From an uncultured Gemmatimonadota bacterium (lineage in GTDB: Bacteria > GCA-2686955): 64,000 bases of DNA. Position 1 is the stretch's first letter. Each line of letters opens with the position of its first letter. The DNA is taken from the NCBI GenBank assembly GCA_964490075.1, contig CAZBBK010000002.1, positions 50,105 through 114,104 on the forward strand, in the 5' to 3' direction. A program made the position numbers and the translations under genes. Shown here in pieces: positions 39,858-41,389 of the stretch. The notes beneath the pieces are model-generated. The model did not search any database. It was given only the letters and a program-made list of their open reading frames with translations, and had not been told where the DNA came from.

Positions 39858-40247
39858 TCAAGCCGTGCGCGCGATCTCCTCGAACAGATGCCGCATCAGG
39901 TCCGTGTAGCCCGCCAAGCGCGCGAAGATCTGGTCGGCCAGCGCCTCATGATAGGTGTGCACCGTGCGGTTCCGGTCGTCGGTCATCTCCAGCGCGAGCA
40001 GGACCTCTTCCTCGCTCAGCAGGCCCGCGGGGAGCGCCTGGCGGAAGCAGGCCTTGGGCGAAGAGCAGATGACACCCTCCACATCCAACAGGTGCGCCTT
40101 CAGGAGCTTCCAGGCAGCCTCGAAGGTGTACTCGAAGCGCTGGATGGACGCGTCGCGGATGAAGACCGAGTACGGCTCGGCCAGCACCTCATCCAGGGTG
40201 ACCAGCGCGCGTTCGGTGCTCTTGATCATGTCTCTCAGGGGCGCCAC
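39858..40247 (-). CDS. hepT: HepT-like nucleotidyltransferase-substrate-binding toxin (type VII TA)
   Basis: HI0074/HepT family; R-x4-H-x-Y motif (RNRTVHTY); 13-nt overlap with the upstream mntA. Confidence 0.75.
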   Translation of the reverse strand: MAPLRDMIKSTERALVTLDEVLAEPYSVFIRDASIQRFEYTFEAAWKLLKAHLLDVEGVICSSPKACFRQALPAGLLSEEEVLLALEMTDDRNRTVHTYHEALADQIFARLAGYTDLMRHLFEEIARTA

Positions 40248-40549
40248 GTGATCGCCTCCTTGCGGGCGTTCCTTCGCAACGCATCGCTGGTCTCGGCCAA
40301 GTTCACGATCTCGACGCGGTAGGGGATCGGGAGGTCTTCCAGGCGCTCCCGCAGGTTGGCCAAACGACCGTGCTCCAGTGCTGCGCGCGGCAAGACGCCC
40401 ACGTCGATGTCCGACCCGGCGTGCGCGTCCCCGCGAGCGTGTGAGCCGAAGAGATAGATCGCCACGTCCTCCTCGCGCAGGTGGTCCAGGACGAGCACGC
40501 GGACGGAGGCGAGGCTCCTGTCCCGGATGGTCGTGGCGGTCGGCTCCAT
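40235..40549 (-). CDS. mntA: MntA-like minimal nucleotidyltransferase antitoxin
   Basis: GS-x9-GSDIDVGV nucleotidyltransferase motif; 104 aa. Confidence 0.75.
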   Translation of the reverse strand: MEPTATTIRDRSLASVRVLVLDHLREEDVAIYLFGSHARGDAHAGSDIDVGVLPRAALEHGRLANLRERLEDLPIPYRVEIVNLAETSDALRRNARKEAITWRP

Positions 40550-40620
40550 GAGCTGATCATGGAGGCGCTTCCGGGACCCGTCAACTCCCCGCCTTCAACG
40601 CGACGTCGAAGTCGGCGATC

Positions 40621-40650
40621 CAGGGTCCCGGCGACTTTGCCGGGACCCTG
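40621..40650. repeat. perfect 12-bp inverted repeat CAGGGTCCCGGC-gacttt-GCCGGGACCCTG in the divergent mntA/vapB intergenic region
   Basis: read directly from the sequence; candidate operator or RNA hairpin. Confidence 0.6.
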
Positions 40651-40668
40651 GTCGGCGGTCGGCGAACA

Positions 40669-40697
40669 TTGACATCAGCAAAATGATGTCATAGGCT
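40669..40697 (+). promoter_or_regulatory. vapBC promoter candidate with embedded operator palindrome (TTGACA - TGACATCA gcaaaa TGATGTCA - TAGGCT)
   Basis: -35 TTGACA, 17-nt spacer, -10 TAGGCT; perfect 8-bp inverted repeat spans the spacer; about 40 nt upstream of the vapB GTG with a GGAGA RBS. Confidence 0.5.
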
Positions 40698-40739
40698 TCA
40701 GATGGCGCCTTCACTCGGCCTGGGAACGCGGAGACTCCA

Positions 40740-40991
40740 GTGAGACAGCTAACCGTACGCAACGTGCCGGCGGATCTGGCCCGCGCCCTCAAAGCCGAGC
40801 GCAGCGCTCGAGGCATCTCTTTGAATCAGACCGTGATCGAGCTGCTGCGCCGCGCCTTGGGGCTGACGCCTGGCGCAGCCTATGACAACGGCCTGGGCGA
40901 TATGGCCGGCACCTGGAGCGCCGCCGACCTGGCGGAGTTCGAGCGCAACGTGCGGGTGTTCGAGCAGGTGGACGAGGAGCTGTGGCGCTGA
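40740..40991 (+). CDS. vapB: RHH-type antitoxin (VapB/FitA-like)
   Basis: MRQLTVRNVPADLARALK N-terminus typical of RHH/FitA antitoxins; GTG start; 10-nt overlap with vapC. Confidence 0.7.
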   Translation: MRQLTVRNVPADLARALKAERSARGISLNQTVIELLRRALGLTPGAAYDNGLGDMAGTWSAADLAEFERNVRVFEQVDEELWR

Positions 40992-41389
40992 CACGCATCT
41001 GTCTCGACACCTCGGCCTACAGCCACTACAAGAGGGGCGACGCTCGGGCCGTCGAGGTGCTGAGCCGAGCGACCCGTGTCGGGATCCCCGCCGTGGTGCT
41101 GGGCGAGCTCAGAGCGGGATTCCGTCGCGGTGGCCGAGCCGAGCGCAACGAGCGCGAGCTGCTGGAGTTCTTGCGCCATCCGCTCGTGGAGATGCTGCCG
41201 ATCGATGATGAGGTAGCTTCGATCTACGCGGATATCGTCATCGACCTCCGGCGCGGGGGCACCCCGATCCCCACCAACGACGTGTGGATCGCGGCGCTCG
41301 CGGCTCGCGACGGATCGGTCGTCGTGACCTACGACGCGCACTTCGAGCAGATCGCGAGGATCGGGACGAAGGTGCTTTCGACCGAGTAG
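40982..41389 (+). CDS. vapC: PIN-domain ribonuclease toxin VapC
   Basis: ICLDTSAY (conserved Asp), further acidic residues (D94, D115 regions); 135 aa. Confidence 0.75.
   Translation: MALTRICLDTSAYSHYKRGDARAVEVLSRATRVGIPAVVLGELRAGFRRGGRAERNERELLEFLRHPLVEMLPIDDEVASIYADIVIDLRRGGTPIPTNDVWIAALAARDGSVVVTYDAHFEQIARIGTKVLSTE

What the first reader, a model, noticed from the sequence alone, without database searches (positions are those of the whole stretch)
39858..41389. Toxin-antitoxin islet: HepT/MntA (type VII) divergent from VapB/VapC (type II), slightly lower GC than the flanks
Two complete TA modules lie back-to-back, each pair overlapping (13 nt and 10 nt). HepT carries the R-x4-H-x-Y motif and MntA the GS...D-x-D nucleotidyltransferase motif. 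VapB has the FitA-like RHH N-terminus and VapC the PIN acidic residues. They lie between a YfgM-like gene and the glycan operon, consistent with a small horizontally acquired addiction or defence islet.
Basis: partly seen in the sequence, partly recalled or inferred. Interest (0 to 1): 0.5.

Follow-up and report, generated by a model that had tools for sequence, protein, structure and literature searches.

The report
Two toxin-antitoxin pairs, small inserted islet
A 1.8-kb insert in a Gemmatimonadota genome carries two ordinary, apparently intact toxin-antitoxin gene pairs (an HEPN/MNT pair and a VapBC pair); they are real, but they are new members of very common families, not anything new.

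Summary
The four ORFs are at the stated coordinates with the stated 13-nt and 10-nt overlaps. All four are confirmed by HMMs.

Pair 1 is an MNT-then-HEPN operon. The toxin belongs to the HI0074/NTase_sub_bind branch of HEPN (PF08780, TIGR01987), not to HepT proper: both HepT models score below their cut-offs. Its closest characterised relative is the Legionella pneumophila type VII HEPN-MNT system. The R92-x4-H97-x-Y99 motif, Q36/E39 and the MNT motif G35-S36-x10-D47-x-D49 are all present and invariant among homologues.

Pair 2 is a FitA-like RHH VapB plus a PIN VapC with all four acidic residues.

The "acquired islet" idea holds, but not because of GC. The islet GC is 0.670 against 0.701 for the window, only the 7th percentile. 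Two related Gemmatimonadota MAGs have the TPR21 and MBL genes abutting with no TA genes. The 1,844-bp extra segment here is bounded by a 28-nt imperfect direct repeat of that junction. The two cassettes occur separately elsewhere.

Verdict: new members of known kinds; low interest.

The parts
39796..39823 (.). Left copy of the 28-nt imperfect direct repeat. It comprises the last 17 nt of the TPR21 gene including its stop, plus 11 nt that resemble the 3' end of the MBL gene with the stop mutated.
   Evidence: 24/28 identical to 41640-41667, spacing 1844 bp. The local alignment score is 36 against a null of 23.7 +/- 3.4. Identity falls to about 35% just outside the repeat. A single copy of the junction is seen in L010 and L011.
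39858..40247 (-). HEPN-domain toxin of the HI0074/NTase_sub_bind family, 129 aa. Carries Q36, E39 and R92-x4-H97-x-Y99.
   Evidence: PF08780 92.2 bits and TIGR01987 76.7 bits. PDB hits: 1wwp 1e-28 and Lpg HEPN toxin 8xdj 2e-10. AF2 model pLDDT 95.2, TM 0.88 to 8xdj. The key residues are invariant in 31 homologues.
40235..40549 (-). Minimal nucleotidyltransferase (MNT) antitoxin, 104 aa, of the short HI0073-like class. Motif G35-S36-x10-D47-x-D49, plus E80.
   Evidence: Polbeta 48.4 bits and NTP_transf_2 39.1 bits. Best PDB hit is HI0073 1no5. G35, S36, D47 and D49 are present in 72/72 partner MNTs, and position 80 is D or E in 71/72. An MNT lies immediately upstream of the HEPN gene in 69/70 loci.
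40556..40584 (-). Predicted sigma-70-type promoter of the mnt-hepn operon: TTGACG-17-CATGAT. It ends 6 nt before the ATG, which implies a leaderless or near-leaderless mRNA.
   Evidence: 1 site found against 0.0 expected. The same layout, TTGACA-18-CATGAT-6-ATG, is seen upstream of the 78%-identical cassette in L096. No transcript data exist.
40541..40567 (.). Inverted repeat with 11-nt arms (10/11 complementary) that covers the -10 hexamer and the mnt start codon. Candidate operator.
   Evidence: repeat I3. By analogy only: S. oneidensis MntA binds a promoter that has palindromes at -10 and -35 (PMC4621449).
40620..40651 (.). Perfect 13-bp inverted repeat with a 6-nt loop, lying between the two divergent promoters. 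Function unknown: it may be the seam between the two cassettes or an operator.
   Evidence: unique in the window, 0 of 100 shuffles. It is not a family-wide feature. Three assemblies break here.
40669..40697 (+). Predicted vapBC promoter: -35 TTGACA at 40669-40674, 17-nt spacer, -10 TAGGCT at 40692-40697. It is overlapped by the perfect 8-bp inverted repeat TGACATCA-N6-TGATGTCA (40670-40691), the candidate VapB operator.
   Evidence: Read; repeat I7; unique in the window. The same half-site occurs upstream of vapB homologues in L099, L102 and L106, and a shared TCATAGxxT -10 element is seen in five of seven loci.
40740..40991 (+). VapB antitoxin, 83 aa, with an N-terminal FitA-like ribbon-helix-helix.
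   Evidence: PF22513 31.5 bits against a cut-off of 27. An 81-83-aa partner lies upstream of every VapC homologue examined. N- and C-terminal motifs are conserved.
40982..41389 (+). VapC PIN-domain toxin, 135 aa. Acidic residues D9, E42, D100 and D118.
   Evidence: PF01850 69.2 bits. Best PDB hit is 3dbo_B. D9 and E42 are invariant, and D100 and D118 are at least 90% conserved in 32 sequences.
41480..41656 (+). orf58, an orphan ORF inside the islet. Its last 17 nt are the right copy of the direct repeat. It may be a remnant or a spurious call.
   Evidence: No Pfam hit and no homologue other than itself. The frame is open from the vapC stop onward with GC3 0.85. No SD sequence is seen upstream.
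41640..41667 (.). Right copy of the 28-nt direct repeat. It comprises a remnant resembling the TPR21 3' end, a stop, and then the true stop and last codons of the MBL gene.

Best explanation
The segment 39813-41657 is a roughly 1.84-kb insertion at the junction of two convergent chromosomal genes (a TPR21/YfgM-like gene and an MBL-fold gene) in a Gemmatimonadota bacterium. It carries two unrelated, independently mobile toxin-antitoxin cassettes transcribed divergently.

Cassette 1 (minus strand): mnt then hepn.
- The HEPN protein is inferred to be a dimeric RNase toxin.
- The upstream 104-aa MNT is inferred to neutralise it enzymatically, by transferring AMP from ATP to Tyr99 of the RX4HXY loop. 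This is the type VII mechanism shown for the L. pneumophila homologue of the same Pfam family.
- If MNT is lost or ATP falls, unmodified HEPN cleaves RNA and stops growth.

Cassette 2 (plus strand): vapB then vapC.
- The PIN-domain VapC is inferred to be a Mg2+-dependent endoribonuclease. Its target is unknown but is probably a tRNA or rRNA loop.
- VapC is held inactive by direct binding of the C-terminal part of VapB (type II).
- The RHH N-terminus of VapB is inferred to repress the operon at the TGACATCA-N6-TGATGTCA palindrome, which overlaps the promoter.

Shown here: gene structure, family membership, intact catalytic residues, conserved pairing, absence of the segment in relatives, and the flanking direct repeat. 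Inferred: toxicity, AMPylation, RNA targets, autoregulation, and any role in addiction or defence.
For: - Families: HMM hits; PDB relatives; fold match of the HEPN model to Lpg HEPN toxin 8xdj (TM 0.88) and S. oneidensis HepT (TM 0.76-0.80). The Lpg toxin is itself PF08780.
- Residues: HEPN Q36, E39, R92, N93, H97 and Y99 are invariant. MNT G35, S36, D47 and D49 are present in 72/72 and position 80 is D or E in 71/72. VapC D9 and E42 are invariant, and D100 and D118 are at least 90% conserved.
- Pairing: an MNT lies directly upstream of the HEPN gene in 69/70 metagenomic loci. An 81-83-aa partner lies upstream of VapC in all seven loci examined.
- Independent mobility: no VapBC lies next to the HEPN gene in 80 loci. 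The 78-84% identical HEPN pairs and the 60-68% identical VapBC pairs sit in unrelated contexts and other phyla.
- Insertion: L010 and L011 have TPR21 and MBL directly convergent with no TA genes. A 28-nt direct repeat lies exactly at both borders.
- Regulation: promoter hits and palindromes. The operator half-site recurs upstream of vapB homologues against a background of 0.0075 per 120 nt.
- Mechanism by homology: PMC11586414 (Lpg HEPN-MNT: AMPylation of Y105, Q44/E47 metal site) and PMC4621449 (MntA binds its own promoter).
Against: - No experiment exists for any of these four proteins. Toxicity, neutralisation and RNA targets rest on homology of 25-52% identity to structures.
- The curated HepT, MntA and VapC equivalog models of NCBIfam are all below their cut-offs, so no specific target, such as tRNA-fMet, can be assigned.
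- In the Lpg homologue, R and H of RX4HXY were dispensable for RNase activity, so the catalytic site in this family is still debated.
- The islet has no recombinase or transposase, and its GC and GC3 are nearly the same as the host's. The time and mechanism of insertion are therefore unknown.
- The islet is fixed in every contig of this population that was found.
Confidence: 0.85

Rival explanations
1. The MNT/HEPN pair is not a toxin-antitoxin system. On this reading it is a two-subunit nucleotidyltransferase: a catalytic HI0073-like subunit plus an HI0074-like 'substrate-binding subunit' that modifies some other substrate, such as a small molecule or antibiotic. That is what the legacy annotation says.
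For: Database names for the family are 'nucleotidyltransferase substrate binding protein'. The MNT gives weak hits to aminoglycoside nucleotidyltransferases. The T. thermophilus and H. influenzae structures were deposited under that interpretation.
Against: The one member of PF08780 that has been studied functionally, L. pneumophila HEPN, is a toxic RNase that its MNT AMPylates on the RX4HXY tyrosine (PMC11586414). That tyrosine and the RX4H residues are invariant here. The aminoglycoside-NTase hits are far below their cut-offs (about 20 bits against 250-550). The cassette behaves as a mobile two-gene unit.
Confidence: 0.07
2. The islet is ancient in this lineage and was precisely deleted in the relatives by recombination between the two 28-nt repeats. 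On this reading it is not a recent acquisition by this organism.
For: GC3 and codon composition are almost fully host-like. The repeats have already diverged at 4 of 28 positions. The islet is fixed in all contigs of the population. Recombination between the repeats would regenerate exactly the single-copy junction seen in L010 and L011.
Against: Two relatives at different distances (74% and 69% amidase identity) both have the empty site. A duplicated junction can itself only arise by an insertion event, so this rival changes the date and not the nature of the event. The closest homologues of both cassettes are in other contexts and other phyla.
Confidence: 0.2
3. The modules act mainly as anti-phage abortive-infection systems and not as addiction or stress modules.
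For: The MNT hits PADLOC candidate-defence models PDC-S09 at 4e-10. VapBC homologues sit inside CRISPR-Cas loci in Vicinamibacterales. From general knowledge, HEPN and PIN RNases are common effectors of defence systems.
Against: The HEPN, VapB and VapC proteins have no PADLOC hit. The neighbourhood is cell-envelope housekeeping genes and not a defence island. No sensor component is present.
Confidence: 0.25
4. One or both modules are decayed, non-functional remnants.
For: There is no mobility gene. The adjacent orphan orf58 looks like debris. One short contig from another sample diverges inside vapB.
Against: All four ORFs are full length relative to homologues, and every catalytic or motif residue checked is intact. 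Translational coupling, SD sequences and promoters are preserved.
Confidence: 0.08

Closest known systems
Legionella pneumophila HEPN-MNT type VII toxin-antitoxin system (PDB 8xdj, 8xeh, 8xeo; PMC11586414)
   Same: The toxin is in the same Pfam family, PF08780. The fold matches (TM 0.88, rmsd 1.6-1.7 A). The RX4HXY loop carries the acceptor tyrosine: Y99 here, Y105 there. The Q-x-x-E pair of the proposed Mg2+ site is conserved: Q36/E39 here, Q44/E47 there. The MNT is short, 104 aa against 108 aa, so it is of the class lacking the long C-terminal helix, and it carries GSX10DXD. The antitoxin gene comes first.
   Different: Sequence identity is only about 25% for the toxin, and the MNT match is weak (E = 2e-4). 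The host phylum differs. No biochemistry exists for this pair, and its oligomeric state and autoinhibition are unknown.
Thermus thermophilus TTHA0636 and TTHA0048 (PDB 1wwp, 1wty), and H. influenzae HI0073/HI0074 (1no5, 1jog)
   Same: These are the closest solved relatives of the toxin: 52% and 43% identity, TM 0.86-0.94. HI0073 is the closest solved relative of the antitoxin. All belong to the same TIGR01987 family.
   Different: These are structural-genomics entries with no functional data, annotated as nucleotidyltransferase subunits.
Shewanella oneidensis HepT/MntA (SO_3166/SO_3165) and Aphanizomenon flos-aquae HEPN/MNT, the founding type VII systems (PMC7641770, PMC4621449; PDB 5yep, 6m6u, 7ae8)
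   Same: HEPN fold (TM 0.72-0.80). RX4HXY in the toxin and GSX10DXD in the MNT. The operon order is mnt then hepn, with the genes overlapping. Palindromes lie at the promoter.
   Different: The toxin is in a different Pfam/NCBIfam family (HepT-like PF01934, NF047751), and the window protein scores below both cut-offs. S. oneidensis MntA is 139 aa with an extra C-terminal helix, whereas this MNT is 104 aa. Toxin identity is 11-17%.
VapBC type II systems with an RHH antitoxin: M. tuberculosis VapBC5 (3dbo), Rickettsia VapBC2 (3zvk) and Neisseria FitAB (2h1c, 2bsq)
   Same: PIN domain with the four conserved acidic residues. FitA-like RHH antitoxin encoded upstream and overlapping the toxin gene. 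An 8-bp inverted repeat overlaps the promoter, as expected for an RHH operator.
   Different: Identity to any solved VapC is low (best E = 8e-10). The NCBIfam VapC equivalogs are below their cut-offs, so no RNA target can be transferred. The VapB C-terminus has no solved relative.

Membership tests
HepT toxin sensu stricto (Pfam PF01934 HepT-like; NCBIfam NF047751) | Score above the curated HMM cut-off | tested here: not met
   PF01934 scores 18.5 against 23.5, and NF047751 scores 19.4 against 60.
HI0074 / NTase_sub_bind HEPN family (PF08780; TIGR01987) | Score above the curated HMM cut-off over the full length | tested here: met
   PF08780 scores 92.2 against 31.8, covering profile positions 3-124 of 126. 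TIGR01987 scores 76.7 against 55.8.
HI0074 / NTase_sub_bind HEPN family (PF08780; TIGR01987) | Helical-bundle HEPN fold matching solved members | tested here: met
   AF2 model pLDDT 95.2 with five helices. TM is 0.86/0.93 to 1wwp and 0.89/0.88 to 8xdj.
Type VII HEPN/MNT toxin-antitoxin system | R-x4-H-x-Y motif with the acceptor tyrosine in the toxin | tested here: met
   R92, H97 and Y99 are present and invariant in 31 homologues, and they align with R98, H103 and Y105 of the Lpg toxin.
Type VII HEPN/MNT toxin-antitoxin system | Cognate MNT with the G-S-x10-D-x-D catalytic motif and a third carboxylate, encoded immediately upstream in the same operon | tested here: met
   G35, S36, D47 and D49 are present in 72/72, and position 80 is D or E in 71/72. 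The genes overlap by 13 nt. An MNT lies upstream in 69/70 loci.
Type VII HEPN/MNT toxin-antitoxin system | The toxin is a growth-arresting RNase, and the antitoxin neutralises it by (poly)AMPylation and not by sequestration | not testable with these tools
   This needs toxicity and rescue assays and mass spectrometry. It has been shown only for homologues (PMC11586414, PMC7641770).
MntA antitoxin equivalog (NCBIfam NF047752) | Score above the curated cut-off | tested here: not met
   49.7 against 60. It is the best NCBIfam hit but is sub-threshold. The Pfam Polbeta (48.4 against 26.9) and NTP_transf_2 (39.1 against 21) domains are met.
VapC / PIN-domain toxin (PF01850) | PIN domain above the cut-off, with the four conserved acidic residues | tested here: met
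   PF01850 scores 69.2 against 23.6. D9 and E42 are invariant, and D100 and D118 are at least 90% conserved. They align to the acidic residues of 3dbo_B.
VapC equivalogs with a defined target (NCBIfam NF047863, NF047959; tRNA-fMet-specific) | Score above the curated cut-off | tested here: not met
   51.8 against 140 and 45.2 against 80. Target specificity therefore cannot be transferred.
VapB, FitA-like RHH antitoxin (PF22513) | RHH domain above the cut-off, with the gene upstream of and coupled to the PIN gene | tested here: met
   31.5 against 27. The overlap is 10 nt. An 81-83-aa partner is conserved in all seven homologous loci.
VapB, FitA-like RHH antitoxin (PF22513) | Autoregulation through a palindromic operator at the promoter | tested here: inconclusive
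   A perfect 8-bp inverted repeat overlaps the -35 and abuts the -10. The half-site recurs in L099, L102 and L106, while other lineages have different palindromes at the same place. There are no binding data.
Horizontally acquired genomic islet | Absent from the same site in related genomes | tested here: met
   In L010, TPR21 and MBL are separated by 0 nt. In L011 the gap is about 40 nt in tblastn coordinates, and only a few nt between the two stop codons as read. Neither has TA genes.
Horizontally acquired genomic islet | Flanking direct repeats (target duplication or att-like) | tested here: met
   28 nt, 24/28 identical, exactly at both borders. There is no homology beyond the repeat.
Horizontally acquired genomic islet | Deviant composition | tested here: inconclusive
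   GC is 0.670 against 0.701, the 7th percentile. GC3 is close to that of the flanks.
Horizontally acquired genomic islet | Own mobility gene (integrase or transposase), or a tRNA target | tested here: not met
   The only other ORF is the orphan orf58. There is no tRNA and no Rfam hit.
Xer/dif-type module (IMEX or pdif module) | 28-bp site made of two 11-bp imperfectly palindromic arms around a 6-bp core | tested here: not met
   The repeat is 28 nt long, but its 11-nt arms are complementary at only 3 of 11 positions. This was read directly from the sequence.

The most novel reading that the evidence does not exclude
The 1,844-bp segment may be a minimal, recombinase-less mobile 'TA cassette array' that was inserted, or is still mobilised in trans, by a mechanism that duplicates an unusually long 28-bp target at the abutting ends of two convergent genes. 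The perfect 13-bp palindrome between the cassettes would then mark the seam or recombination site at which individual TA cassettes are exchanged. The 36-nt palindromic repeats that bracket the 78%-identical MNT-HEPN cassette in L096, and the three assemblies that break at the palindrome, would be traces of the same process.
Probability: 0.08. Interest if true: 0.5.

Novelty: new member of a known kind. Interest (0 to 1): 0.15.

Why it matters
It matters little beyond annotation. Three modest points are worth recording.

- It is a clean example of TA cassettes accumulating at a junction between convergent housekeeping genes, with the empty site preserved in relatives and a duplicated junction marking the event.
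- It adds a Gemmatimonadota member to the HI0074-type HEPN/MNT group, which has so far been studied functionally only in L. pneumophila. This member keeps both the RX4HXY loop and the Q/E pair, so it could help test which of the two is the RNase site in this branch.
- It shows that genome annotations reading "nucleotidyltransferase substrate binding protein" should be read as type VII-like toxins.

Tried and rejected
- **GC or codon deviation as evidence of transfer.** It is real but only at the 7th percentile, and other parts of the window are lower. It was not used as evidence.
- **Longer duplication behind the repeat.** I tested whether orf58 is a diverged copy of the TPR21 3' end. Identity outside the 28 nt is 33-43%, which is background, and the anchored alignment is no better than the null. 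Rejected.
- **orf58 as a remnant of a mobility gene.** It has no Pfam hit and no homologue other than itself among 5.8 billion proteins. It stays unexplained.
- **The 13-bp palindrome as a family feature of MNT-HEPN cassettes.** Only 3 of 67 loci have a hairpin of at least 8 bp in the equivalent position, against 3.4% of control regions. Rejected; it is specific to this locus.
- **The palindrome or direct repeat as a dispersed repeat (REP or MITE).** Both are unique in the 64-kb window.
- **Integron attC or Xer/dif site.** There are no GTTRRRY/RYYYAAC cores in the intergenic region (read), and the arms of the direct repeat are not palindromic (3 of 11).
- **RNA genes in the islet.** There are no Rfam or tRNA hits.
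- **A known plasmid or phage cassette.** Only distant plasmid matches were found (32-44% identity). Phage collections were not searched.
- **An empty-site variant within the same population.** All four contigs carrying the exact TPR21 protein also carry the islet.
- **Co-travel of the two cassettes.** None of 80 HEPN loci has an adjacent VapBC. Rejected.
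Full report
**1. Observation**

| Gene | Coordinates | Strand | Length |
|---|---|---|---|
| HEPN | 39858-40247 | - | 129 aa |
| MNT | 40235-40549 | - | 104 aa |
| VapB | 40740-40991 | + | 83 aa |
| VapC | 40982-41389 | + | 135 aa |

- The overlaps are 13 nt and 10 nt, as stated.
- The GTG start of the HEPN gene is preceded by AAGGAGG-N7 (sequence). Homologues have the same length, so the 13-nt overlap does not depend on an arbitrary choice of start codon.
- Long spurious ORFs are common in a 70% GC genome. These four, however, have Pfam E-values of 3e-26, 1e-12, 2e-7 and 6e-19.

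**2. Family assignment, pair 1**

- The toxin is a clear member of PF08780 (NTase_sub_bind, 92.2 bits against a cut-off of 31.8) and of TIGR01987 (HI0074 family, 76.7 against 55.8).
- It scores below the cut-offs of the HepT models: PF01934 gives 18.5 against 23.5, and NF047751 gives 19.4 against 60.
- The antitoxin has Polbeta and NTP_transf_2 domains. Its best NCBIfam hit is MntA, but that is sub-threshold (49.7 against 60).
- The closest solved toxin relatives are T. thermophilus TTHA0636 (1wwp, E = 1e-28) and TTHA0048, then the L. pneumophila "HEPN toxin" (8xdj, 8yuf), then HI0074. The closest solved MNT is HI0073.
- I scanned the aligned part of the Legionella toxin and confirmed that it is also PF08780, at 124 bits.
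- That system has been characterised experimentally as type VII (PMC11586414). Its MNT poly-AMPylates Y105 of the RX4HXY loop. The RNase activity was assigned to a Mg2+ site formed by Q44 and E47. R98A and H103A had negligible effect. Its MNT lacks the long alpha4 helix of S. oneidensis MntA.
- In the window protein the equivalents are Q36, E39, R92, H97 and Y99. All are invariant in an alignment of 31 homologues of 51-84% identity.
- An AlphaFold model (pLDDT 95.2) superposes on 1wwp (TM 0.86/0.93), on the Legionella toxin (0.89/0.88), and less well on S. oneidensis HepT (0.76-0.80) and the A. flos-aquae HEPN.
- In the MNT, G35-S36-x10-D47-x-D49 is present. These four residues are invariant in 72 of 72 partner MNTs that I extracted, and the third carboxylate position (E80 here) is D or E in 71 of 72. 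Their median length is 103.5 aa, which places them in the short class.

**3. Family assignment, pair 2**

- VapC has a full PIN domain (69.2 bits). D9 and E42 are invariant, and D100 and D118 are at least 90% conserved in 32 sequences. These align to the acidic residues of M. tuberculosis VapC5, PDB 3dbo.
- The NCBIfam VapC equivalogs are below their cut-offs, so no RNA target can be inferred.
- VapB passes the FitA-like RHH model (31.5 against 27).

**4. Conserved pairing and independent mobility**

- Of 70 metagenomic loci that hold a homologue of the HEPN gene and enough upstream DNA, 69 have an MNT homologue immediately upstream on the same strand. None of the 80 loci has a VapBC next to it.
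- The 78%-identical pair (P0004, L096) has the same gene lengths and the same overlap, but sits between a lectin gene and a MOSC gene. The 84%-identical pair (P0002) sits beside a second MNT-HEPN pair.
- The nearest VapC homologues outside this population are 60-68% identical and come from Acidobacteriota, Myxococcota and others.
- In all seven loci examined, VapC is preceded by an 81-83-aa partner. The contexts are unrelated, including two loci where the pair lies between cas2 and cas3.

**5. The islet**

- The flanking amidase gene identifies the host as Gemmatimonadota.
- In two related MAGs the TPR21 gene and the MBL gene converge directly, with no TA genes between them. These are L010 (74% amidase identity) and L011 (69%). 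L010 has no spacer at all and L011 only a few nucleotides between the two stop codons.
- The extra segment in the window, 39813-41657, is bounded by a 28-nt imperfect direct repeat: 39796-39823 and 41640-41667, 24 of 28 identical, 1,844 bp apart.
- Each copy contains the TPR21 stop region followed by the MBL stop region, so the single-copy junction of the relatives has been duplicated. The non-functional half of each copy carries the mismatches.
- Identity drops to background immediately outside the repeat.
- The local alignment score of the repeat was reached by only 1 of 388 random window pairs. Its position exactly at both borders is a much stronger argument than that score.
- Composition is only weakly deviant: GC 0.670 against 0.701, the 7th percentile, with GC3 close to the flanks.
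- The islet holds no recombinase, tRNA or Rfam hit.
- It is present in every contig of this population that I could find.
- The remaining 250 nt hold orf58. This ORF has a coding-like GC3 but no homologue other than itself.

**6. Regulatory region (40550-40739)**

- The only sigma-70-like hit is TTGACG-17-CATGAT on the minus strand. It ends 6 nt before the mnt ATG. L096 has TTGACA-18-CATGAT-6-ATG. This suggests a leaderless mnt-hepn transcript.
- An 11-nt inverted repeat covers the -10 hexamer and the start codon. S. oneidensis MntA is known to bind a promoter with palindromes at -10 and -35 (PMC4621449).
- For vapBC, reading one search gives TTGACA (40669-40674), a 17-nt spacer, and TAGGCT (40692-40697). 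This is overlapped by the perfect palindrome TGACATCA-N6-TGATGTCA.
- The same half-site occurs upstream of vapB in L099, L102 and L106, against a background expectation of 0.0075 per 120 nt. Other lineages carry different palindromes over a shared TCATAGxxT element. That pattern is what one expects of RHH operators.
- A perfect 13-bp inverted repeat (40620-40651) lies between the two promoters. It is unique in the window and is not a family feature. Its role is unknown.

**7. Conclusion**

- Both modules look intact and are expected to work as their characterised relatives do: type VII AMPylation control of an HEPN RNase, and type II sequestration of a PIN RNase with RHH autoregulation. All functional steps are inferred.
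- These are new members of very abundant families, so interest is low.

Noticed in passing
window 40619-40651: Three contigs from independent assemblies of the same population stop at the 13-bp palindrome: L002 ends at 40645, L004 ends at 40629, and L007 starts at 40619. This could be a coverage drop at a GC-rich hairpin, or strain heterogeneity at the seam between the two cassettes.
   Followed up: partly
L008 1-32 (joins the window at 40766, inside vapB): The first 32 nt of a 698-nt contig from another sample do not match the window upstream of 40766. This is either a chimeric contig end or a variant with a disrupted vapB 5' end.
   Followed up: partly
L009 12876-12969: In the closest relative (76% amidase identity), the sequence after the TPR21 stop matches neither the MBL end nor the HEPN end, and the contig stops 91 nt later. 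The junction may be variable among Gemmatimonadota.
   Followed up: partly
L096 5592-5627, 6472-6507, 6523-6558: The 78%-identical MNT-HEPN cassette in another metagenome is bracketed by 36-nt REP-like palindromic repeats (GGGGCGGAC-N6-GTCCGCCC). Within the 12-kb locus they occur only around the cassette.
   Followed up: partly
L099 2283-6056 and L106 763-3402: VapBC homologues (67-68% identical VapC) sit between cas2 and cas3 of CRISPR-Cas loci in two Vicinamibacterales MAGs.
   Followed up: no
window 41658-42398 (-): The MBL-fold gene next to the islet has a weak N-terminal match to the anti-Pycsar Apyc1 family (24.3 bits against a cut-off of 50). It is conserved in relatives that lack the TA genes and overlaps the downstream GT4 gene by 4 nt. 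It therefore belongs to the glycan operon and not to the islet.
   Followed up: partly
window 41390-41656 (+): The vapC reading frame stays open for 89 codons past its TAG stop, with GC3 of 0.85. The called orf58 (41480-41656) has no SD sequence, no Pfam hit and no homologue other than itself.
   Followed up: yes
window 38813-39082 (+): An 89-aa ORF between the amidase and TPR21 genes has no Pfam hit but is conserved at 50-59% identity in all three related MAGs. It is probably a real small gene of unknown function.
   Followed up: no
window 24101-26500 and 43901-47400: Windows of islet size starting at 24101-24701 and at 43901-45551 reach GC of 0.648 and 0.655. Both are lower than the TA islet. 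They were not examined.
   Followed up: no
contig of P0002 (JGI 3300072015, no DNA available): The 84%-identical HEPN pair lies about 1 kb from a second MNT-HEPN pair whose toxin is of a different HEPN family (PF05168). This is an example of TA cassettes clustering.
   Followed up: no
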